Source of the DNA: Albugo candida
Taxonomy: Eukaryota
DNA: 64,000 bases
Assembly (NCBI GenBank): GCA_040437565.1
Contig: JBDOQK010000001.1
Coordinates: forward strand, 248,001 to 312,000
Direction: 5' to 3'
Shown here: positions 8,601-43,156 of the stretch, one piece after another
How positions within the stretch are numbered: the stretch's first letter is position 1
Layout: each line of letters starts with the position of its first letter
Translations under genes and position numbers: made by a program
The notes under the pieces: model-generated
The model's input: the letters and a program-made list of their open reading frames with translations, nothing else
Told to the model about the DNA's origin: nothing
The model's database searches: none

Positions 8601-9067
8601 CTGGAGCTCAGGCTCGAGCTGTTGTCGGATTCATTGGTGATGTCATGGCCGATAAAATCGATCAAATTTTAGCGCACGGGAAAATCATACGGGATGACTC
8701 GGACCAAGGATATCATCAGCATCGCCGGGTGGCAGGAGAGCCTGCACCCATCGTGCAAGATCTTCGTAATAATCCTGCCAAAAAAAAAGAGAATCAGCTA
8801 ATTGTGGATAGGTTGACCGATTACGGTGAGAGTCATCTGACGTCGGGGCACCGTGGCACCGGAATTTCTCATTTACGTGCGGCAAGAGAAATCCGCAATG
8901 CGGACACAGTGGTGCAGTCTGGAGCAAGTGCGAGGCAGATTGGTATGGTTGGAGGAAGAGTGGCGCAAAAAATCGATCAGATTTTGAGAGACGGCCACGC
9001 TGATGACGATGAGGATTATCATCCCGGCGATGACGAAGAAGAGCCAGAGGGAACGGAGTACGGCAGC
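5560..9067. repeat. Identical direct duplication across gap (5560-7263 = 7364-9067); creates a false truncated copy of the HhH-repeat gene
   Basis: Offset 1804; gap 7264-7363. Confidence 0.9.
7749..7766 (+). promoter_or_regulatory. Oomycete Inr/FPR-like core promoter element
   Basis: ctccagttttcaattagc lies just upstream of ATG 7775 and resembles the oomycete YCAYTYY-n-CAWTT initiator. Confidence 0.4.
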
Positions 9068-9337
9068 TGGGAAAAAGGTCACATTCCTCCAATTGTCGAG
9101 GATATACGTTCGCGTTCAGCGGCGAAGAAGGAGAACCAGCGCTTGGTGGACGCTCTGACCGATTACGGGGAAGAGCAACTGAAACAGAAGCATACAGGGC
9201 GAGGGATCACATATCTGCGCGCTGCACGCGAGATTCAAAACACTAGTGAGGTTATCAAGAGTGGGCAGGATGCGAAGAAAGTGGCTGTTGTCGGTGACAA
9301 AGTCGCGGATTTTGTTGAGAATTGTTTAAAGCAATGA
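7775..9337 (+). CDS. About 485-aa protein: N-terminal UBA-like helical motif plus four tandem DNA polymerase beta-type 8-kDa (HhH) domains, with no polymerase core
   Basis: Exons 7775-7849, 7903-7965 and 8018-9337 are joined in frame by GT-AG introns. Four repeats of KENQ-x-IVD-x-L-x2-YGE...HLRAA-x-EI...IGFIG-x2-MA-x-KIDQIL-x-HGKI resemble the Pol X N-terminal domain (N-x-EI-x3-L...AYRKAA...LPGIG-x-KIA-x-KI-x-EIL-x-TGKL). Confidence 0.8.
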
Positions 9338-9470
9338 AGAGCGTTTTTGATTGGCTACAAATTGCATGGCTATTAAGACTGTAATTGTGTGCTTTAATTA
9401 ATGTCAAATATAGTGTGACGAGGCTCGACTTTACGCGTTGTGTACACTACTTTATGCGAATGCTACTACA

Positions 9471-10724
9471 ATGTCATATTTGCATCGATCGACGCACTTG
9501 AATAACTGGATATTCACGCAGGAGGAGCTGATTCTTGTTCGAGATTTACGTACAATCAAGTCGCAGACTACATCAAGCAAACATCATGCATCGAGATCTG
9601 GAGGTAATGCGGCAGAGAAGGAGGGCGCAGCGTTTTTAGGACGGCGACAAGCGCGATCATTTGCAGCACTCATTCCAAAGTCGACTCTAGCCATACCGAA
9701 TGTGAATGATTGGAATGACGAAACGGACTTAAAAAAAGCAAAGGATTTCGCTGTAGAAGCAAGTAAAGAAGCAGCGTTTGATACCTCACTCTTGCCAAGT
9801 CTGGAAGAAGAAAAAACTCTTGTCGAATTCTACGAGTCAAAAGTGCAGGAGAGTTGCACTCAGCTTTTTCGAACTTCAGAAAAAGTAAAATCGTCGGCCA
9901 TACAGCTTTTCAAGCGATTTTACTTATCGAATAGCGTGGCAGAGTTTCATCCCAAATATCTAGTCCCGACCGTTATCTACGTGGCAGCTAAAGTGGAAGA
10001 GCAGTATATTAGCGTGGAAACTATAGCGGAACATCTCAAAGTATATAAATCATTATGCATGCTCATATTTACGCTAAATGTGCGCTCTTAGATCGACCAT
10101 AAACATGTCATCGGTCATGAGATGATTCTATTGGAAGGCGTCCGATTTCATTTGATTATGTACCATCCATTTCGTCCTTTATTAGGCTTCGTTGACGATT
10201 TGCGACTGTATGCTAAAGCTAAAGGGAAGCAGCTACCACTCGAATTGCTACAAATTTTACATACAAAAGCAAGTGTTGTTGTCAATGAGTTTCTGCTTAC
10301 CGACGTACCGTTGCTGTATCACCCAGCACAGCTTGCGTTGGCCGCATTATTTGAAGCCATTGATCCAACTAACACAGACACGAGTCAAGTTTGCAGAGAG
10401 GATCTTATTGCTTGTATCCGCCTTCATGCCCCTGGGGGCGATTCTATCGTGAAGAGTATGGTAGACATTCTGGGCTCGATAGCAAAGCACCGCAAACGCA
10501 CTTTGCCAAGTACGGATGGCACAAACGATCAAGCCGACTTTGATCCAAAAGCAATCAAAGCAATTTATAAAAAGCTGAAGCCATTTCATGAAGTTTATGA
10601 GGAAGGAAATCCCGCTACTCAAGGGAAACATAAGACGAAAAAGTCAAAAGATGGAAAGGACGTGAAAAAACGAAAAAAATCAACCTCTAAAGATAATAAA
10701 AGTAGTAAGAAAGCGAAGAAATAG
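9471..10724 (+). CDS. CCNH: Cyclin H (CDK-activating kinase/TFIIH cyclin)
   Basis: STHLNNWIFT N-terminus; cyclin box FKRFYLSNSVAEFHPK...YVAAKVEE; EMILLEGVRFHLIMYHPFRPL; LLYHPAQLALAAL. Intron 10041-10091 joins the two ORFs in frame. Confidence 0.92.
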
Positions 10725-13957: not shown

Positions 13958-15117
13958 ATGAGTAGAGCTCGCGTATACTGTGATGTGAACGAGACACGCC
14001 CTCGCGAATATTGGGACTATGAGAATCTGCAAGTCACTTGGGGGTACGCTTCATTATGATAACGTTTATTATACTTCTATTAACTTTATAACACGCATTT
14101 ACGTAGTGATCAAGACAATTATGAAGTTATTCGTAAAATTGGTCGTGGAAAGTACAGTGAAGTGTTTGAAGGCTATAATGTGACCAACAATTCAAAGTGT
14201 GTCATCAAAATACTGAAACCTGTCAAGAAGAAGAAAATCAAAAGGTATGAAACATGGTGTCTTATAACCTCCGCTTTATGTCATTTTGTGATTATAGAGA
14301 AATCAAGATATTACAAAATCTGTCTGGAGGTGTCAACATTGTCCAGCTATTGGACGTTGTGCGAGATCCGCAATCCAAGACACCAAGCCTCGTTTTTGAG
14401 CATGTAAACAACACAGACTTCAAATCATTGTATCCGACATTGACAGATTATGATATCCGTTATTATATCTACGAATTGTTGAAAGCTTTGGATTATTGTC
14501 ATTCCAACGGAATAATGCATCGCGATGTAAAACCTCACAACGTCATGATCGATCATGAGAAGCGACAATTGCGTTTAATTGATTGGGGTCTCGCTGAATT
14601 CTACCATGCAGGAAGAGAGTACAATGTCCGCGTAGCAAGTCGATATTTCAAAGGTCCAGAACTCCTGGTCGATATGCAGGAATATGATTATTCGCTCGAT
14701 ATGTGGAGTCTTGGATGCATGTTTGCCGGAATGATATTTCGCAAAGAACCCTTTTTTCATGGACATGATAATTGTGATCAATTGGTGAAAATTGCTAAAG
14801 TGAGAGGAACAGAAGAATTGTTCGATTATTTGTCGACATACGATTTGGAAATGGATCCACAATATGACGGGATTTTGGGATCTCATTCAAAAAAGGCGTT
14901 GGAAAAATTCATAACCGCAGAAAATAAGCATTTGGTCTCACCAGAAGCATTGGATTTTTTGGATCGATTACTGAGATACGATCATCAAGAGCGGTTAACA
15001 GCAAAAGAAGCAATGCAACATGTTTACTTCCTGCCAATCCGCGATGCTCAAGACCTGAAAACGCGTGGAATTCAGCATGCAGAGGAGATAACGAGCGTTT
15101 CAGATTCTAGTGCTTAA
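13958..15117 (+). CDS. CSNK2A1: Casein kinase II catalytic alpha subunit
   Basis: [61 protein letters not shown] and [14 protein letters not shown]; two short introns. Confidence 0.98.
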
Positions 15118-15459
15118 GTTGTAGAGTCCCATTCGTCACATTATCATCCATTATGTAGCTAAAATGCATGGAAGTGTTCCATGCAGAGATACAGGTGATG
15201 ACAAAGTGTATCCTTTCGTGTCGCTGCTCTTATCACGCGTTATAGGGTACATTCATCACGTCCGAACTTTTCGCGCTAACCAAATTGATGTCAGAGTGTA
15301 GCTGAGCATCGCGCCTTGATTCGTATGTGATCTGCATTCTTCGCGAATATGCAATTAAGGTCGCATGAATTTTAGCCAATCTTTGAATGAATCCTTCGCA
15401 TCCAATCATTCCATGACGATGCGCAATAGAGAGCCAGCCACGTGTACAAGCACTTTGCA

Positions 15460-36900: not shown

Positions 36901-38719
36901 GAAAGATTCATCATCGGCATTTTCCATAGTCAGTCCTTAACATCCGATATACACTCTATTTTGTTTCATTTCGGGTTCTTTATGTAATTCTATGATTGTA
37001 TTGAGCAAAAGTTTGAATTTGGCGTCGTATGCGATCTACAGAAAGAGGTGAGCCATTCATGTATTTTGGCCTTTACGAAGCCAATCTCACCTTCGAGGTC
37101 TTCTTTCGTCGAATGCATATTTTCGAATTCCATGTTGAATGGGATTTTGGCGGTAGTCTATTTTCCCCAAGTGAGATTCAATGTACGATTCACAAAGGTT
37201 GGATGATAAGGCACTGACCTCAGCCTGAACTCGTCGGACAGACTGTAGAAATGGATGGTTCAAAGCATCTGCGACACGTATCCTTGCATCGGGATTAAAT
37301 AATAACATCTTTTGAAGTAAGTCCAAAGCTTCGGTAGGAGCCCCTGGATACATTTCTTTGAGATCTCGCGGAGCTTTTTTTGGCAGCTGTTGTAAATACT
37401 CTCTCACTTCTGATGCATTTTCTATGTCAGTATCGTTGGGAGTACCGATCACACTGAAGATGACATTCAGTTGGTCCAACTTGTCCGAGTATGTTGTCGG
37501 GCGATCCGCACTGAGAGGGAAGCATGATCGACCCGGGAATAAAGGAGCTCGGTCTTGATAACGAGGGCAGCTCTCAGCTTGCATACTCAATAATTCTGCG
37601 AATATACACCCAACGCTCCATACATCGACTGCAAAGCTGTAATCTTGCAATAAAATAAGCTCAGGAGCCCTATACCATCGAGTCACGACGTGTTTGGTGA
37701 GTTGCCGGCGAACTGTTGGAGTATGCTGATGAGAGTATGCCGATGTTTCTGATAACGGAATCGAAGATCGATTTGGAAGAAAATCACTCAGAGGGTAAAG
37801 ATGTTTGCTCCGTTCTTCGCGAGTGCCTGTGACATCGACTACTCGGGCCAATCCAAAATCACAAATCTGTAGTTCATACAACCACATCATTATCGCAAGG
37901 CACACTCAAGGATCGCAACTTTCGGTACCATTAACGTGCAATCTTCATTCAAAAGGATGTTGGCCGGTTTCAAGTCTCTATGAATTACGTTTGCTGAGTG
38001 TATATAGTTCAAGCCACAAAGTAGCTGGTAGAGGAAGACTTGTATATGCTTTATTGTGAGGTACTGCGGACTCATAATAAGCTTTTGCAAATCGGTATCA
38101 AGAAACTCGAACACCAGATACAGATGATTGCCAAACATTTTGGAAACTGGAGGAAACACATCCAGCAGTCTGATCACCTGACCATGGCTGCACCAGTCAA
38201 ATAGAAACTATGATTAAAACGAATCGGAGGGAAAAACGTAAAAGGCTCAGATAACGTACTGTAAATGTTGAACGATATGGATCTCTCGATATATCCGCTT
38301 ACAATCAAGACTCTGTCGAAAAACATCGATGACCTTCTTGATCGCAACTTTTTTGCCGCGGATGTTGTCGTACGCCTCGACCACTTGACCGTACGAGCCT
38401 TTACCCAATAAACGCACCAGACGGTATGAAGACGGTAGACTCCAATTACGAAACTGCTCTGACAATAATGGAGAGATCCCAGGTGCCGATGGTGGTGCAT
38501 TTTCTCTGAATTGAGTCCCATTTTTTGCAGGTGAGCTTACACGCTCATTATGTCCATCTAAAAAAGTCTCGTCCACCGCAGTCCGCTGACTTGCAACTGG
38601 CGTAGTCATACCAGAAACTTCCGGTACATCTGTTGACTCCACATCCATCAGTGTACTATTCAAGTCCGAAATCGTTTCTGAACTTATCGGAGTCGGAGGC
38701 ATTTCATTTTGTGAGACAT
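33116..38719. repeat. Identical duplication across gap (33116-35867 = 35968-38719); creates a false second kinesin tail and a false 5'-truncated MAPK copy (34128-35867)
   Basis: Offset 2852; gap 35868-35967. Confidence 0.9.
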
Positions 38720-38930
38720 GTGGAGTAGGCGCAATGTAGGCTCTTGAAGCTCTTGAAATAGGATCAGTCGTAGCGAGACGTTGATGTTTTTCAAAGGCGT
38801 ATGCCTCGAAGCAATCTTGCGCGCGTAATTTTGAGGACGCTACAGATGACGTGCTCATAAACTTACGCTTACGATTCGGTGCATCATTTATGTCTGTTTC
38901 GCTGTGGTTCTGAACGCTTTGGGTTGTCAT
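36980..38930 (-). CDS. Atypical MAP kinase with T-K-H activation motif (Plasmodium MAP-2-like)
   Basis: LGKGSYGQV, VAIKK, HRDLKPANILL, CDFGLAR, LTKHVVTRWYRAPE and LFPGRSCFPLS; several short introns; stop at 36980. Confidence 0.92.
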
Positions 38931-39188
38931 TTGAAAAGCGGCAACGCGCTTTAGTACCTTTAGTTTGCTTACCTTTTCGTAATGATAAAAGAAAAGTAAA
39001 GTTGCAGTTGCGAAAAACCTCAGCAGATTTGGATAAAAACCCCTCGATCGCGTGGAAGAGTGATTGCGAGAGAGAAGCGCTACTTGCTCTAATCTGCATG
39101 TTCATCTTTTGCACCAATTATAGTTTCACAAACACCCTACTCCTTTTGTTCTTTACCCCGATAAAGAACACTGATTGGAAGATATATG

Positions 39189-39569
39189 CTACATCTCGAA
39201 TTCTTGCTCCAGCAGACCGCTTACATCACTCTCGCTCTCATTTGTTTCTAATCGCACTTGTAGCTGCGACTCGCGCAACTTTGCGAGATTTTGACTCTGC
39301 ATAATGTCCTTTTCCTGGGCAATCTGCATACGGATTTTTTGCTCATCTCGTATACGAATCAATCGCGTTGAATGAGTTTGTTGACCGGCCTTTACTGAAG
39401 ATTGCAGACGCTTTTTCGCATAAAGTAATTGCCGCTGCTCTTCTGTCAATACCGCCAAGAGTTGAGATATTCGATCGGAAGTACTGCTCAAAAGTTCGAG
39501 CTCATATTTAAGACATTTTAATTGCTGATCAAGCCCTTCCTGACTCTTTTCTTGTGCATCAAGCGGCAT
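39189..39569 (-). CDS. Hypothetical coiled-coil protein (126 aa; 5' end next to a gap)
   Basis: ATG-initiated ORF rich in L/Q/E/K heptads, lying between two real genes. Confidence 0.55.
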   Translation of the reverse strand: MPLDAQEKSQEGLDQQLKCLKYELELLSSTSDRISQLLAVLTEEQRQLLYAKKRLQSSVKAGQQTHSTRLIRIRDEQKIRMQIAQEKDIMQSQNLAKLRESQLQVRLETNESESDVSGLLEQEFEM

Positions 39570-39741
39570 CTCAAGCGCAGGTTCCGATACCTTATGGGCA
39601 AATTCTNNNNNNNNNNNNNNNNNNNNNNNNNNNNNNNNNNNNNNNNNNNNNNNNNNNNNNNNNNNNNNNNNNNNNNNNNNNNNNNNNNNNNNNNNNNNNN
39701 NNNNNNTACATTACCTCTCAAATTGGTTACCCTTCGCAGAT

Positions 39742-42223
39742 TTATACTTTTGTATCAGTACTCAATTTCGATTTGATGCTTGGCGACAGTAATGAACACC
39801 AGTAGCTTTCTTTAGATGTTTCTCCGTACGAGTCTGAAAAATCCACAGTTCGAAGGACATACTTTGGTTCATCGCATACTTTCATCACAGCTTGTACGCC
39901 ATAATCCAGCGGGACAGAGTAAATGCCGTCCAAAGTGACTCGCATATCCCAGCCAAGAGATCGCATGGACACACGACGCGCCTTTCCTCTAAAAAACAAT
40001 TTCAGCCGCGATGTAGAACGCACTGCACGATCAATACCAACCTTCGAAAGCGGATATCCCCGAACGTCTCATTGATGATTGGTTCCCGAACGATGTATCC
40101 CAAATCAACAGAATCTTCGGAATAGACCGATTCTTTGTTGAATAGCTCTGTGAGCTCCGTCACTGTCTCATTCGTATGCGTATGGTGCATAGCTTGAAGC
40201 ACCTTGGCGACTTGCTCACGATACATTTGACACTACGAAATTCACGTCAAGGACACAGGTTTTTGACGGGTCGAGGGTGTACACTTACAGCACTATAGTA
40301 CCAAGCAGAAGATCCCGTCCCGGTACATACGATGATACCACTGCTTCGTTGTGATTCTCTCTGATGCTGGTCGACGCCAATGTTATAATGTGATGGCCGT
40401 GATGCATCACTTTCCGCAATGAAAACTTCATTCAATGCGTAACGAGGCAGTTCATACCAGAAGCCGTCCTGATTGACCATTCCGACACGAATACGCTGCC
40501 GCAGTCGCCAATTGAATTTCCCCTCAAGAAGGCGTTCCAAGACCGTCGAAAAGCGATTACATACTTGATCGACAGCGTAGCAGCACAATTTTCCTTCACT
40601 CCGTACAGGATCCGTATTCAAACCTGCGACCGGAATCGGAGTGTTGACAAAGCTCGCAGCTTTGAGAAAGGTACCGTCACCACCTGCCGAAAAGACCATA
40701 TCTGCACTGTTGACAGCTTCGTGGTTCAAGCGATCTGCAGAAATGACATCAACTTGAATGGAATGCTGCTTCAGTGTCGACGTGATATCTTCCAAAGCTT
40801 CAACATGGTGATCATGACTTGCTTTCAATCGATCATACACAAATCCACGCATCGACATTTGCTTCCGGAGTGCGTCCCTGCATCAAAGAAGAAACGGATG
40901 CATCAATCGCTTGTGAAGTTCCAAGTTAAGAGCCTACTCACCCGCTATTCCCGTGGAGCTCGCATTCATGCTCAAATCGCGTCATTTTGTTCACCACAAG
41001 AACCTTTTTCAAGTCAAGTGCCTTTTTGGCAGAATTGTACATCGGTTTGACGTCAGATGGAGCATTTTGCGAAGTACTTGCCATCAAGGTATTCATCGCT
41101 ATCGAAGAGGTTATACTTTGCTCCGCCCGTGCTGCTTTGGGGATCATGAACGATGATTTTGCTCTCTTGTACGTCTCTTCAATATACTCCTCGGAAACGA
41201 TCATTCGTGGCACACGCTCTGCAATTGCCAGTAGCATTTCGTTATCATACACCGGTCGTTCAATCTTGATCCAGCCTTTTGGACTCAGTTTTTCATTCCA
41301 TGGGCAAACTGATCGCATGTACGAAAAACTGGGAGCTACTTCGCCAGTAAACGGATCGGTTCGCGTATAATGTAAGATATGGCCATTATGGATCTGGTCC
41401 ACCATTCTTCCAGAGTCCTGAAGCTCCCTGAATGTATCTTGTGACATTCTTTCCAGCCTTGTACGCATCGCCCAAATCACTTCGCCATGACAAACAACAA
41501 TCGCTTTCTTGGCATTGCACTCACGATTTAAGGAGCAAAAAAGTCGATCCACACGCTGAGCAACTGCAGCCAGAGATTCACCACCGGGAGGAGCATAGTA
41601 AAATCGGTCGAGATCTCGTCGTTGTAATTCATGTTGCATGGTGGATATGCGTTCTTGCTCCGACATCAGATCCATCTGGCCCCAATCCCGCTCACGAAGA
41701 AGCATCTCCGCGTACCATTTCGCATCTGGCAGTTGCAATCGAGAGGCAGTTTCCATCGCACGTAGATATTCCGACACAAAATATCGATCAAAATGAACCT
41801 ATCCAAAAAAGTTTGATGACGGATGAACCTAATGGCTCGATGAAAACGTACCAAATTATTCTCTCGGAGCCATTCTCCCGCCGCCAGAGCCTGCTGCCTT
41901 CCGCGATCAGTCAAGCGCCAATTGGAGCTATGACGATTTTTGAACTCGCCATAGAACAAACTGTCATCTCCTTGCAGCGACTTTTGTCGTGCAACATTTC
42001 CTTCGCTTTCACCGTGTCGAATTAGTACGAGTTCCTTCAGTCTGGGAACTGGCAATGGTGCGTCATCGTCGCTTCCGAGTGGTCCTGTACTGGCATGGAG
42101 GACGTGATATCGCAAAAGAGATGTCGATCGAGATGATTGCCGCATGCCAGGAATCGCCTTTTGTGAGAGTAAAGCGCTCCAAAACATCACGTTTTTATGC
42201 GTGAGTGCTGAATCCAAATACAT
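39742..42223 (-). CDS. Fusion protein (about 751 aa): putative mitochondrial presequence, histidine phosphatase (PGM-family) domain, NADK2-type NAD kinase
   Basis: Exons 42223-41852, 41798-40942, 40877-40289, 40232-40042 and 39988-39742 total 2256 nt in one frame. Phosphatase motifs: LIRHGESEGN, LTDRGRQQA, SEYLRAMETA, LRERDWG, PPGGES, VVCHGEVI. Kinase motifs: VLVVNKMTRFE, SAGGDGTFL, ALNEVFI, SSGIIVCTGTGSSAW. Confidence 0.88.
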
Positions 42224-43156
42224 CAGAAGCGATATGAATATGAAGTGTACAATTATAAGCGCCTTGGGCGTGATTGGCTTGTTATTCCTTCGCTACTTTC
42301 AGCAAAAAAGCAGATGTAAATGTGTTTGCATATGCTTCGAACGGAACGTGATTGGGGCATGAACCCGCTCGTGGAGGGCGCTTATTATGAATGGTACGGT
42401 AAAAGCGGATTAGGTGAATGTGGGTGATGACGATAGCGGCGTCATCGATAGTGTGTGACAAGGATGTCTGAGTCAAAGGTAAGAATCAGACGACCACTGA
42501 AAACTTCAATAGCGAGACGATCTGCCTTTTCAATGCAGTTTTTGCAGTCTCTGCGCGTTATTGCTTTCATCTTTCAAAATGATGCTTTCCATGCGGGTTA
42601 GAGATCGTGCGTTGGATCAAAATGAGCATCAATGCATTCAAGTTTCAGTTGAAGCATATCGTCGCTGAATTACATCTCGAAGTAGGCCATGACCTACCAA
42701 ATTGAACGATAATTTGCAAGATCCGTGTGCCAAATCTTCTCCTCCTAGGTGGCTCAACGAATTCTGATGTCAATTGATCGACTGCACAAAGACTTGACTG
42801 AAGCTGCATTTCATACCGTGTTACCAATGTCCAGATGGATCAATTGTTAAAGCGTTCATCGAATAAGGTCAATTTTTTCAAAGTTAATTCGGCGCCGACG
42901 TCGGACTGATGCAGTGAATTGATCACCGCGCAAGACAACCAATATGTAAGAGTGGCCATTCTATTCAATCGGTAATGTATTGATCTGCACGAAGAAAACG
43001 CACTAGTCGATGAAGAATAATGCGAGTTTTTAACGCCACTAAGAATTTCCCAGAAATTCCTATACTATGCGATAATTATAAGCACGCACCATACTATACT
43101 ATAGCAATATATTATAAATCGGCGTTGATGCCGCGCTTTTTTGCTCCTAATTTTCA

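What the first reader, a model, noticed from the sequence alone, without database searches (positions are those of the whole stretch)
39742..42223. Histidine phosphatase fused to a NADK2-type NAD kinase: candidate bifunctional NAD+/NADP(H) switch enzyme
Seen: four ORF-track fragments plus the 5' ORF splice through four canonical short GT-AG introns into one 751-codon frame. The first kinase motif (KKVLVVNKMTRFE) is already in the same exon as the phosphatase domain, so the fusion does not depend on the splice model. Both active sites look intact: RHG, RA-x-ETA, E-x-DWG and VCHG for the phosphatase; GGDGT, NE and TGTGSSAW for the kinase. The N-terminus is R/S-rich, like a mitochondrial presequence. 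Established: PFK-2/FBPase-2 pairs a kinase with a histidine phosphatase that reverses it; archaeal MJ0917 fuses NAD kinase to an NADP phosphatase of the unrelated inositol-monophosphatase fold; the eukaryotic NADP(H) phosphatases nocturnin and MESH1 use other folds. Inference: this may be an independently evolved single-chain NAD kinase/NADP(H) 2'-phosphatase that sets the mitochondrial NADP pool. I know of no characterised enzyme with this architecture but cannot search.
Basis: partly seen in the sequence, partly recalled or inferred. Interest (0 to 1): 0.88.

Follow-up and report, generated by a model that had tools for sequence, protein, structure and literature searches.

The report
Histidine phosphatase fused to NAD kinase
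One spliced oomycete gene joins an intact histidine phosphatase to a mitochondrial-type NAD kinase, which may make and unmake NADP in a single protein, though the phosphatase's substrate is still untested.

Summary
A minus-strand gene (42223..39742) has five exons and four GT..AG introns of 53, 64, 56 and 53 nt, and encodes 751 aa. Assembled contigs from two runs skip exactly these four introns in one piece. The model aligns end to end with fused homologues. Residues ~60-340 are a His_Phos_1 domain. Residues ~385-722 are a NADK2-type NAD kinase, whose best solved relative is human NADK2 (E 2e-35). Catalytic residues of both domains are conserved in 38-39 of 39 and 32 of 32 fused homologues.

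The fusion occurs in many oomycetes and in two haptophytes. It forms one clade nested among ~268-aa standalone bacterial phosphatases. That phosphatase subfamily reaches no named NCBIfam family. In 2 of 119 bacterial loci it lies inside a complete NAD salvage cluster, once beside an NAD kinase gene.

My best reading is a NAD(H) kinase / NADP(H) 2'-phosphatase, at about 0.45; the substrate is inferred, not shown. Ten full-text searches found no description of this enzyme. I rate it a new variant of a known kind (the MJ0917 type), interest about 0.7.

The parts
42224..42309 (-). 5' untranslated region covered by the spliced contig. An in-frame stop lies at 42293-42295, upstream of the first ATG.
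41852..42223 (-). Exon 1 (residues 1-124): presequence-like N-terminus and the start of the phosphatase domain, including R69-H70-G71.
41799..41851 (-). Intron 1, 53 nt, GT..AG, phase 0.
   Evidence: Skipped by contigs of X1 and X12. The Pfam profile runs 43 to 44 across it without a break.
40942..41798 (-). Exon 2 (residues 125-410, the last codon split): the rest of the phosphatase domain, the linker, and the first strand of the kinase (KKVLVVNKMTRFE).
40878..40941 (-). Intron 2, 64 nt, GT..AG, phase 2.
40289..40877 (-). Exon 3 (residues 410-606): kinase core with GGDGT (40670-40684), NE (40427-40432) and TGTGSSAW (40301-40324).
40233..40288 (-). Intron 3, 56 nt, GT..AG, phase 0.
40042..40232 (-). 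Exon 4 (residues 607-670, the last codon split): NADK2-specific insert of the kinase C-terminal domain.
39989..40041 (-). Intron 4, 53 nt, GT..AG, phase 2.
39742..39988 (-). Exon 5 (residues 670-751 plus the TAA stop at 39742-39744): end of the kinase domain and a 29-residue unconserved tail.
42047..42223 (-). N-terminal extension (residues 1-59). From Met13 on it is basic, Ser/Leu-rich and free of acidic residues up to residue 51, which is a presequence-like composition.
   Evidence: Composition only; no targeting predictor was run.
41151..42046 (-). Histidine phosphatase domain (residues 60-340; interrupted by intron 1). Catalytic residues are R69, H70 (42014-42016), R137, E160 and H228. It includes a C-terminal extension specific to this subfamily.
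41019..41150 (-). Ser/Thr-rich linker (residues 341-384). The matching stretch of homologue P0005 (residues 319-356) is predicted to be disordered.
39832..41018 (-). NADK2-type NAD kinase domain (residues 385-722; interrupted by introns 2-4).

Best explanation
The locus is one nuclear gene of an oomycete. It encodes a 751-aa protein in four parts: a presequence-like N-terminus; a catalytically intact histidine phosphatase of a distinct subfamily that is probably of bacterial origin; a flexible Ser/Thr-rich linker; and a complete mitochondrial-type (NADK2) NAD kinase.

Shown: the gene structure, its splicing into one message, both domain identities, the conservation of both active sites, and the single origin and wide retention of the fusion.

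Inferred: the phosphatase removes the 2'-phosphate that the kinase adds, converting NADP(H) to NAD(H) plus Pi. The chain would then set the size and phosphorylation ratio of the organellar NAD(P) pool. This mirrors PFK-2/FBPase-2 for fructose-2,6-bisphosphate and MJ0917 for NADP. A futile cycle would be avoided by regulation through the linker, or by opposite redox preferences (NADH kinase against NADP+ phosphatase). Both of those last steps are speculation.
For: Gene and fusion:
- Five-exon model of 751 aa.
- Contigs of X1 and X12 bridge all four introns in one piece from 42309 to beyond 39710.
- Single-HSP alignments to fused homologues.
- The kinase homology starts inside exon 2.

Domain identities:
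- His_Phos_1 scores 73.7 bits against a cut-off of 21.7; NAD_kinase scores 31.6 against 25.5.
- The best solved relative of the kinase is human NADK2, E 2e-35, against 8e-9 for classical NADKs.
- The modelled kinase half of homologue P0005 fits NADK2 with TMt 0.84-0.88 and rmsd 2.6-3.9 A.

Both sites under selection, in 39 fused homologues:
- R69 39/39, H70 38/39, R137 39/39, E160 39/39, H228 39/39.
- GGDGT 32/32 and N559 34/34, counted over the rows that have residues at those columns.

Retention:
- 26 of 39 long hits carry both Pfam domains in the precomputed annotation. They include Pythium, Phytophthora, Peronospora, Saprolegnia, Aphanomyces, Lagenidium and the haptophyte Diacronema lutheri. 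Prymnesium parvum (P0037) is listed with His_Phos_1 alone, but it aligns over both domains (residues 60-722) and gives a sub-threshold NAD_kinase match (23.5 bits against 25.5).
- All 16 fused rows fall in one 20-row clade (SH-like 98; SH-aLRT 96).

Independent link of the phosphatase subfamily to NAD metabolism:
- In L009 the standalone orthologue sits in a same-strand run: Nudix, NadD, NadK, PncB, phosphatase, NDT-like, Prs, NadE.
- In L036 it sits between PncA-PncB-Nudix and NrtR-NadE-NadD.
- None of 41 control loci holds such genes.

Other points:
- Fused homologues have N-terminal extensions of 30-60 aa, with 6-11 K/R and 0-3 D/E in the first 40 residues.
- NADK2 enzymes are mitochondrial and use both NAD+ and NADH (PMC9873681, passages).
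- There is precedent for a bifunctional NADP phosphatase/NAD kinase in MJ0917 (PMC8553519, passages).
Against: - No assay exists. Substrate specificity cannot be read from sequence in this promiscuous superfamily.
- The NAD gene context is rare: 2 of 39 genome loci and 0 of 80 metagenome loci (698 kb; 51 loci of 6 kb or more). That is 2 of 119 in all.
- The 138 nearest neighbour genes of 37 loci share no conserved partner. The commonest Pfam family was matched by only 3 members.
- A salvage cluster would equally suit an NMN/NaMN 5'-nucleotidase or another nucleotide phosphatase.
- The closest sequence relatives with a known function are only generic. The FBPase-2 domain matches at E 2e-7, and CobC scores 50-57 bits against a cut-off of 163.
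- The fused model has pTM 0.51 and a disordered linker, so no fixed geometry between the two active sites is predicted.
- An unregulated kinase and phosphatase in one chain would burn ATP.
- Localisation rests on composition only.
- The runs with the spliced contigs are labelled RNA only by a guess, and may be one data set filed twice.
Confidence: 0.45

Rival explanations
1. The phosphatase works in pyridine-nucleotide metabolism but does not simply reverse the kinase. It could dephosphorylate NMN or NaMN (acting as a 5'-nucleotidase), 2'-phospho-ADP-ribose, 3'-NADP, or a damaged or mis-phosphorylated NAD(P) derivative. It would then act as a salvage or proof-reading module attached to the kinase.
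For: - The two bacterial clusters (L009, L036) are Preiss-Handler salvage clusters with PncA/PncB, NadD, NadE, Prs and Nudix. In such clusters a mononucleotide or ADP-ribose-phosphate phosphatase would fit as well as an NADP phosphatase.
- In L009 the next gene, 13 nt downstream, is related to nucleoside 2-deoxyribosyltransferases, which suggests nucleotide breakdown.
- The best NCBIfam partial match is CobC, a phosphatase of a ribose-5'-phosphate nucleotide.
Against: - Fusion to a kinase whose only known product carries a 2'-phosphate makes direct reversal the simplest reading.
- A 5'-nucleotidase has no obvious reason to be tied to NADK2 in one chain across oomycetes and haptophytes.
- No evidence singles out any of these substrates.
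Confidence: 0.25
2. The phosphatase has a substrate unrelated to NAD(P). It could be a sugar bisphosphate or phosphoglycerate (as for FBPase-2, TIGAR or dPGM relatives), or a phosphoprotein (as for PGAM5 or Sts). The fusion would serve co-localisation, or regulation of the kinase by dephosphorylating it or its linker.
For: - The best solved sequence relative is the FBPase-2 domain of PFKFB3 (E 2e-7).
- Foldseek lists PFKFB3, PspA, dPGM and glucosyl-3-phosphoglycerate phosphatase at similar scores.
- 117 of 119 bacterial loci show no NAD genes nearby.
- The linker is Ser/Thr-rich and disordered, so it could be a phosphorylation site.
- Unfused, eukaryote-looking paralogues exist without any kinase.
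Against: - No named family is reached. dPGM models score 53 bits against a cut-off of 316, and TIGR01258 scores 36 against 82.
- Structural identity to every solved relative is only 17-22%, with TMq 0.55-0.65.
- This reading does not explain the two NAD clusters, or why the only recurrent fusion partner with a recognised domain family is NADK2.
Confidence: 0.2
3. The phosphatase domain is mainly a sensor. It would bind NADP(H) or another phosphorylated metabolite and control the kinase allosterically, with little or no turnover.
For: Kinase feedback by NADP(H) is common in NAD kinases (general knowledge, recalled). The flexible tether would allow the domain to dock on the kinase.
Against: - Every catalytic residue (R69, H70, R137, E160, H228) is kept in 38-39 of 39 fused proteins, and also in the standalone bacterial enzymes. 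That is the pattern of an active enzyme.
- The standalone forms have no kinase to regulate.
Confidence: 0.07
4. The fusion is an artefact of assembly or gene modelling, and two adjacent genes have been merged.
For: A 100-N gap lies 36 nt beyond the stop codon (39607-39706). The transcript contigs come from an assembler that can merge neighbouring genes.
Against: - The phosphatase domain, the linker and the first kinase strand lie in one uninterrupted exon.
- Independent DNA contigs of two other studies span the region colinearly.
- The same fusion is annotated in many genera.
- All 5 of 5 exonic polymorphisms are synonymous.
Confidence: 0.02

Closest known systems
MJ0917 / MMP1489 bifunctional NADP phosphatase/NAD kinase of methanogens (NCBIfam NF010678)
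   Same: The domain order is the same: phosphatase at the N-terminus, NAD kinase at the C-terminus. The proposed logic is also the same, with synthesis and breakdown of NADP in one chain (PMC8553519, passages).
   Different: The phosphatase there has the inositol-monophosphatase fold and the kinase is the classical prokaryotic type. Here the phosphatase is His_Phos_1 and the kinase is the NADK2 type. Homologue P0005 matches NF010678 only over the kinase part, at 57.6 bits against a cut-off of 493. This would be convergence, not homology. NADPase activity is shown for MJ0917 and not for this protein.
6-phosphofructo-2-kinase/fructose-2,6-bisphosphatase (PFKFB1-4)
   Same: A kinase is fused to a histidine phosphatase that reverses it. 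The FBPase-2 domain is the closest solved sequence relative of this phosphatase (E 2e-7) and is among the top Foldseek hits.
   Different: The domain order is reversed. The kinase there is a P-loop fold and the substrate a sugar bisphosphate. Identity is only about 21%. This phosphatase has an insert after RHG and a C-terminal extension of about 70 residues that FBPase-2 lacks.
Human NADK2 (C5orf33), the mitochondrial NAD kinase (PDB 7n29, 7r4j)
   Same: The kinase half aligns over the whole NADK2 fold, with model residues 380-722 against residues 66-442 of a 442-aa NADK2. Identity is 33-34%, TMt 0.84-0.88. The GGDG, NE and TGTGS.AW motifs are present.
   Different: Animal and other unfused NADK2 proteins (344-500 aa) carry no phosphatase domain.
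Standalone bacterial histidine phosphatases of about 268 aa (Patescibacteria, Gammaproteobacteria, Planctomycetota, Armatimonadota, Actinomycetota MAGs); uncharacterised
   Same: They are 49-59% identical over the entire phosphatase domain, including the subfamily-specific insert and C-terminal extension, with the same catalytic residues. The eukaryotic fused clade nests among them.
   Different: They have no kinase domain and no presequence. JGI labels many of them 'NAD+ kinase', although they hold only a phosphatase domain.
Nocturnin, Arabidopsis CCR4C and MESH1 (known eukaryotic NADP(H) phosphatases)
   Same: The proposed reaction is the same. Nocturnin is partly mitochondrial (PMC12557515, passages).
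   Different: The folds are unrelated (endonuclease-exonuclease-phosphatase and HD domain), and these are standalone enzymes. Pfam finds none of these folds in this gene.

Membership tests
Histidine phosphatase superfamily, branch 1 (Pfam PF00300) | Profile match above the gathering score. | tested here: met
   Exon 2 scores 73.7 bits and exon 1 scores 24.2 bits, against a cut-off of 21.7. Profile positions 1-43 and 44-170 follow on across intron 1.
Histidine phosphatase superfamily, branch 1 (Pfam PF00300) | Catalytic core: the RHG nucleophile His, two Arg, the Glu proton donor and the second His. This residue list is recalled from knowledge of dPGM and FBPase-2. | tested here: met
   R69, H70, R137, E160 and H228 are present, and conserved in 38-39 of 39 fused homologues. 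The same residues are invariant or at least 90% conserved in 70 standalone homologues.
2,3-bisphosphoglycerate-dependent phosphoglycerate mutase (the name UniRef gives the homologues) | Score above the cut-off of the NCBIfam dPGM models. | tested here: not met
   For P0161 the best dPGM model, NF002339, scores 53.3 bits against 316, and TIGR01258 scores 35.7 against 81.7. The window's exon 2 scores 30.3 against 316.
Alpha-ribazole phosphatase CobC (TIGR03162) | Score above the equivalog cut-off. | tested here: not met
   50.2-56.9 bits against a cut-off of 162.9.
NADK2 (mitochondrial-clade NAD kinase) | Closer to NADK2 than to classical NAD kinases, over the full length. | tested here: met
   By sequence against the PDB: NADK2 at E 2e-35, the best classical NADK at 8e-9, POS5 at 4e-4. 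BLAST to unfused NADK2 proteins covers model residues 380-722. Foldseek gives E 2e-35 and TMt 0.84-0.88 to 7r4l and 7n29.
NADK2 (mitochondrial-clade NAD kinase) | Catalytic GGDG motif, the NE motif and the glycine-rich TGTGS.AW loop. | tested here: met
   GGDGT is at residues 475-479, NE at 559-560 and TGTGSSAW at 595-602. GGDGT is identical in 32 of 32 fused homologues that have residues at those columns.
NADK2 (mitochondrial-clade NAD kinase) | Mitochondrial localisation. | not testable with these tools
   Only composition was examined. The extension is basic, Ser-rich and acid-poor in the window protein and in most of the 28 fused homologues printed. No targeting predictor or experiment was available.
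MJ0917-type bifunctional NADP phosphatase/NAD kinase (NF010678) | IMPase-fold phosphatase half plus kinase half; score above the cut-off. | tested here: not met
   P0005 matches profile positions 342-481 of 570 only (the kinase half), at 57.6 bits against 493. The phosphatase here is His_Phos_1.
PFK-2/FBPase-2 | A 6-phosphofructo-2-kinase domain N-terminal to the FBPase-2 domain. | tested here: not met
   Pfam finds no 6PF2K domain in any exon. The FBPase-2 likeness is remote: E 2e-7 and about 21% identity.
NADP(H) phosphatase (functional class) | Hydrolysis of the 2'-phosphate of NADP+ or NADPH. | not testable with these tools
   Inferred from the fusion partner and from two bacterial gene clusters. 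No biochemical data were found.

The most novel reading that the evidence does not exclude
The whole phosphatase subfamily would be a previously unrecognised, widespread family of dedicated NADP(H) 2'-phosphatases. It comprises the ~268-aa bacterial proteins, the unfused eukaryote-looking forms with low-complexity tails, and the NADK2 fusions. It would be a further, unrelated fold for this activity, beside IMPase-type MJ0917, the EEP enzymes nocturnin and CCR4C, and HD-domain MESH1. In oomycetes and haptophytes its fusion to an NAD(H) kinase would create a single-chain switch for the mitochondrial NADP pool. If the kinase prefers NADH and the phosphatase prefers NADP+, the protein would also run an ATP-driven cycle that moves reducing power from NADH to NADPH, doing the work of a transhydrogenase.
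Probability: 0.35. Interest if true: 0.85.

Novelty: new variant of a known kind. Interest (0 to 1): 0.72.

Why it matters
NADP is made by NAD kinases everywhere, but the enzymes that take the phosphate off again are poorly known. A 2025 paper still lists only MJ0917, MESH1, nocturnin and now CCR4C, and notes that residual activities remain unassigned (PMC12557515, passages). I recall that the enzyme behind the NADP phosphatase activity reported in rat liver mitochondria in 1987 was never identified; the paper only cites that report.

A phosphatase welded to the mitochondrial-type kinase in two large eukaryotic lineages is a concrete, cheaply testable candidate. So are its hundreds of standalone bacterial relatives, two of which sit inside NAD operons. 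If the candidate is confirmed, it would give a new NADPase family, a handle on the NADP(H) balance in organelles and bacteria, and a second natural example of PFK-2/FBPase-2-style design for a cofactor pool. It would also correct widespread misnaming of these proteins as 'phosphoglycerate mutase' and 'NAD+ kinase'.

If the phosphatase turns out to act on something else, the fusion still marks an unknown regulatory link to NADK2.

Tried and rejected
- Whole genome of the window: none is held. Other NAD kinases or a transhydrogenase in this organism could therefore not be looked for.
The taxa of unnamed fused proteins (P0025-P0028, P0032, P0036, P0038, P0039, P0240, P0243) and of the unfused eukaryote-looking clade remain unknown.
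- ESM Atlas search with P0005 gave no usable hit.
- The look-up of sequencing runs: no RNA holder listed. Only contigs could be laid, so transcript ends, strand and expression level cannot be stated.
- Conserved-operon search. The 138 neighbour genes of 37 loci were scanned against Pfam. The commonest family was matched by only 3 members, so there is no conserved partner.
- Eighty further metagenome loci held none of the NAD genes.
- Viral contigs: 18 relatives, of which only one is full length, at 33% identity (L081). It was not pursued.
- A first greedy gene caller failed on high-GC loci and was replaced.
- L020 was dropped from the trees because its match holds stops or a frameshift; L010 was kept with X at one stop.
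- The fused model gave no confident inter-domain packing (pTM 0.51). No claim of domain contact is made and no complex job was run.
- Names rejected as family assignments after the NCBIfam cut-offs failed: phosphoglycerate mutase, PhoE and CobC.
- Supplementary files of papers were closed and were not consulted. The supplementary trees and tables of PMC6675116 might list the oomycete mito-clade genes.
Full report
**What is there**

The finding lies on the minus strand. Stop-to-stop ORFs in three frames and the sequence itself give a five-exon gene:
- Exons: 42223-41852, 41798-40942, 40877-40289, 40232-40042 and 39988-39745, with a TAA stop at 39744-39742.
- Introns: four, of 53, 64, 56 and 53 nt, each GT..AG.
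- Product: 751 codons.
- Start: an in-frame stop at 42293-42295 precedes the first ATG. A second ATG (Met13) matches the start of the Lagenidium homologue.
- Gap: a run of 100 N (39607-39706) begins 36 nt beyond the stop codon and does not touch the gene.

**Is the model real?**

Three independent lines say yes.
- Contigs. Contigs of 2889 and 2890 nt in runs X1 and X12 cover 42309 down to 39710 and run on for 515 nt. They skip exactly the four predicted introns, each with CT..AC ends on the + strand. The 13-kb contigs of runs X10 and X11 keep the introns, with 11 differences from the window. The tool only guesses that X1 and X12 are RNA, and their near-equal sizes suggest one data set filed twice. 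Even so, a contig that lacks four GT..AG introns which other contigs keep is what a spliced message looks like.
- Homology. The spliced protein aligns as a single HSP with full-length homologues: P0001 at 79% over residues 60-723, and Lagenidium P0005 at 75% over residues 13-721. The Pfam His_Phos_1 match runs from profile position 43 at the end of exon 1 to position 44 at the start of exon 2.
- Polymorphism. Of the differences from the DNA contigs that fall in the gene, 5 of 5 exonic ones are synonymous and 3 lie in introns.

Homology to unfused NADK2 proteins begins at residues 380-388, inside exon 2 (residues 125-409).

**The two domains**

*Phosphatase, residues ~60-340.* This is a His_Phos_1 domain scoring 73.7 bits against a cut-off of 21.7. 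Its closest solved relatives by sequence are FBPase-2 domains of PFKFB enzymes, at only E 2e-7. A high-confidence model of a standalone homologue (pLDDT 97.3) finds only generic superfamily members at 17-22% identity and TMq 0.55-0.65. These include mycobacterial hydrolases, PFKFB3, PspA, CobC, dPGM and Rv2419c. No NCBIfam family is reached: CobC scores 50-57 bits against 163, and dPGM 53 against 316. The UniRef name 'phosphoglycerate mutase' for the homologues is therefore not supported.

*Kinase, residues ~385-722.* This is a complete NADK2-type NAD kinase. Human NADK2 matches at E 2e-35, the best classical NADK at 8e-9 and yeast POS5 at 4e-4. Unfused NADK2 proteins of animals and unicellular relatives are 30-44% identical over exon 3 and 32-38% over the whole fold. 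The modelled kinase half of P0005 fits NADK2 structures with TMt 0.84-0.88.

*Linker.* About 40 residues, Ser/Thr-rich. The matching stretch of P0005 is predicted to be disordered, and with pTM 0.51 no fixed inter-domain packing is predicted.

**Conservation**

In 39 fused homologues the catalytic residues are kept as follows:
- Phosphatase: R69 39/39, H70 38/39, R137 39/39, E160 39/39, H228 39/39.
- Kinase: GGDGT 32/32, N559 34/34, G598 and A601 33/33, counted over rows that have residues at those columns.

Both halves look like working enzymes.

**Distribution and origin**

- A search with exon 2 among proteins of 500-2000 aa returned 39 hits. Of these, 26 carry both Pfam domains in the precomputed annotation, 11 show His_Phos_1 only and 2 show NAD_kinase only.
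- Several of the 'phosphatase only' rows nonetheless align with the kinase half of the model, or show weak NAD_kinase matches.
- Named sources include Pythium, Globisporangium, Lagenidium, Phytophthora, Peronospora, Hyaloperonospora, Peronosclerospora, Saprolegnia and Aphanomyces, and the haptophytes Diacronema lutheri and Prymnesium parvum.
- The window's organism is thus an oomycete. Its nearest relatives are at 73-86% identity, and the genus was not determined.
- A search among proteins of 156-499 aa gave 402 hits. Most of the 120 listed are ~262-285-aa standalone proteins, 49-57% identical over the whole phosphatase domain.
- A full scan of 1.84 billion cluster representatives gave 170 hits at E <= 1e-30.
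- In species-representative prokaryote genomes, full-length orthologues (L001-L039) occur in MAGs of several Patescibacteria lineages, Gammaproteobacteria, Planctomycetota, Armatimonadota, Acidobacteriota and Actinomycetota.

*Trees of the phosphatase domain.* In both trees all 16 fused rows fall in one 20-row clade: FastTree on 212 rows gives SH-like 98, and IQ-TREE quick on 78 rows gives SH-aLRT 96. At least two of the four other rows in that clade (P0138, P0141) are fragments from contigs of 1.1-1.9 kb. Its sister is a clade of unfused proteins with eukaryote-like low-complexity tails and no N-terminal extension. The union of the two (support 95 and 93) is nested among the bacterial standalone proteins when rooted on distant actinobacterial histidine phosphatases.

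I read this as one fusion event, with a bacterial origin of the module being likely. The caveats are quick search methods, a long-branched outgroup and unknown taxa for many rows. L020 was left out of the trees.

**What the phosphatase does: gene context**

The fusion partner is the main clue, so I looked for independent evidence in the bacterial orthologues.
- There is no conserved operon. Among 138 genes flanking 37 loci, no Pfam family was matched by more than 3.
- Two loci are striking. In L009 (a gammaproteobacterial MAG) the phosphatase is the fifth gene of a same-strand run: Nudix, NadD, NAD kinase, PncB, phosphatase, a protein related to nucleoside 2-deoxyribosyltransferases, Prs, and glutamine-dependent NadE.
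- In L036 (Saccharibacteria) it lies between PncA-PncB-Nudix on one side and NrtR, NadE and NadD on the other. NrtR is the Nudix-related regulator of NAD genes.
- Seeds from these genes found nothing in 41 control loci around unrelated histidine phosphatases. They also found nothing in 80 further metagenome loci of the family.
- The context is therefore 2 of 119 loci. Prs alone occurs in two more loci, L008 and L017.
- By my own rough estimate (an inference, not a computation), a random gene would lie inside such a cluster in well under 1 locus of 119. The signal is suggestive but thin.

**Mechanism**

The most economical reading is a NAD(H) kinase / NADP(H) 2'-phosphatase in one chain, imported into mitochondria.
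- The extension is presequence-like in composition in the window protein and in most fused homologues (6-11 K/R and 0-3 D/E in the first 40 residues).
- NADK2 enzymes are mitochondrial and accept both NAD+ and NADH (PMC9873681, passages).

*Shown:* the architecture, the intact active sites, and retention of the fusion.

*Inferred:* the substrate, the localisation and any regulation. The disordered Ser/Thr-rich linker, or opposite redox preferences of the two halves, could prevent a futile cycle. Both ideas are speculation.

*Rivals:*
- Another pyridine-nucleotide phosphoester, such as NMN or NaMN, 2'-P-ADPR or 3'-NADP. This fits the salvage clusters equally well.
- An unrelated sugar-phosphate or protein substrate, with a regulatory role for the fusion.
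- A sensor domain, which the conserved catalytic residues and the standalone forms argue against.
- An artefact, which is excluded.

**Comparison with what is known**

Functionally the closest systems are MJ0917 and PFK-2/FBPase-2.
- MJ0917 is an NADP phosphatase/NAD kinase with the same domain order, but it pairs an IMPase-fold phosphatase with a classical kinase (PMC8553519, passages; NF010678 not met).
- PFK-2/FBPase-2 pairs a kinase with the histidine phosphatase that reverses it, but the order is reversed and the kinase and substrate are different.
- The known eukaryotic NADP(H) phosphatases (nocturnin, CCR4C, MESH1) use other folds (PMC12557515, passages).

*Literature.* Ten full-text searches combined NAD kinase or NADP phosphatase with histidine phosphatase, phosphoglycerate mutase, His_Phos_1, PGAM, oomycete or bifunctional. 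None found a description of this architecture or of a histidine-phosphatase NADPase.

A 2019 phylogeny of eukaryotic NADKs discusses cytosolic-clade genes of oomycetes and holds no occurrence of 'phosphatase' or 'fusion' (PMC6675116, term counts and passages). A 2023 NADK2 review holds no occurrence of 'phosphatase' (PMC9873681). All four papers were read in passages only.

**Verdict**

The gene is an ordinary member of a fusion family that already sits, automatically and inconsistently named, in public records. The window itself is therefore not unique. The family as a whole appears uncharacterised and is a good, directly testable candidate for a new kind of NADP(H) phosphatase. I rate it a new variant of a known kind, with interest 0.72.

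Noticed in passing
window 39607-39706: A run of 100 N (a scaffold gap) starts 36 nt beyond the gene's stop codon. The spliced contigs of X1 and X12 continue 515 nt past 39710, so they could close this gap.
   Followed up: partly
window 39189-39606 (-): A same-strand ORF directly downstream of the gap encodes a Gln/Glu/Leu-rich sequence that looks like a coiled coil. The transcript contigs probably run into it, either by read-through or by merging of neighbouring genes in a compact genome.
   Followed up: no
window 38247-39101 (-): This ORF ends with a protein-kinase glycine loop and the VAIKK motif (LGKGSYGQVV...VAIKKV), so it is the start of a Ser/Thr kinase gene. The motif reading is from recall and was not tested.
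   Followed up: no
proteins P0127, P0131, P0143-P0235: JGI names scores of ~268-aa standalone phosphatases 'NAD+ kinase', although they hold only His_Phos_1 (P0161 and P0180 were checked). This is probably annotation carried over from the fused eukaryotic proteins. UniRef names the fused proteins 'phosphoglycerate mutase (2,3-diphosphoglycerate-dependent)', which the NCBIfam cut-offs do not support.
   Followed up: partly
L009 4437-12988 (+): A near-complete Preiss-Handler NAD pathway plus an NAD kinase lies in one same-strand array of a gammaproteobacterial MAG. It also holds an unassigned 387-aa protein related to nucleoside 2-deoxyribosyltransferases (8820-9983), which has no NCBIfam match. 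A 6-phosphogluconate-dehydrogenase-like gene follows at 14266-15174.
   Followed up: partly
L036 9601-10568 (-): The NAD synthase gene of this Saccharibacteria locus is read as two ORFs (131 aa and 179 aa). The cause is a frameshift, a sequencing error or a split gene.
   Followed up: no
proteins P0261, P0284, P0285, P0307, P0273, P0287: These unfused members of the phosphatase family start MYRNMPVD or MHRNMPVD, with no N-terminal extension. They carry long low-complexity tails (up to 1959 aa in total) with no Pfam domain. They look eukaryotic and cytosolic, and form the sister clade of the fused proteins. Their taxa are unknown.
   Followed up: partly
protein P0249 (577 aa): This protein holds two His_Phos_1 stretches. 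The sequence before its second RHG ends like the C-terminal extension of the family, so it is a tandem duplication of the phosphatase.
   Followed up: no
proteins P0116, P0118, P0119: Apicomplexan proteins of about 1100 aa, annotated 'DNA-directed RNA polymerase III RPC8' (Toxoplasma, Hammondia, Besnoitia), match the NADK2-type kinase core at 48-50% identity over 24% of the query. They are possibly merged gene models or another NADK2 fusion.
   Followed up: no
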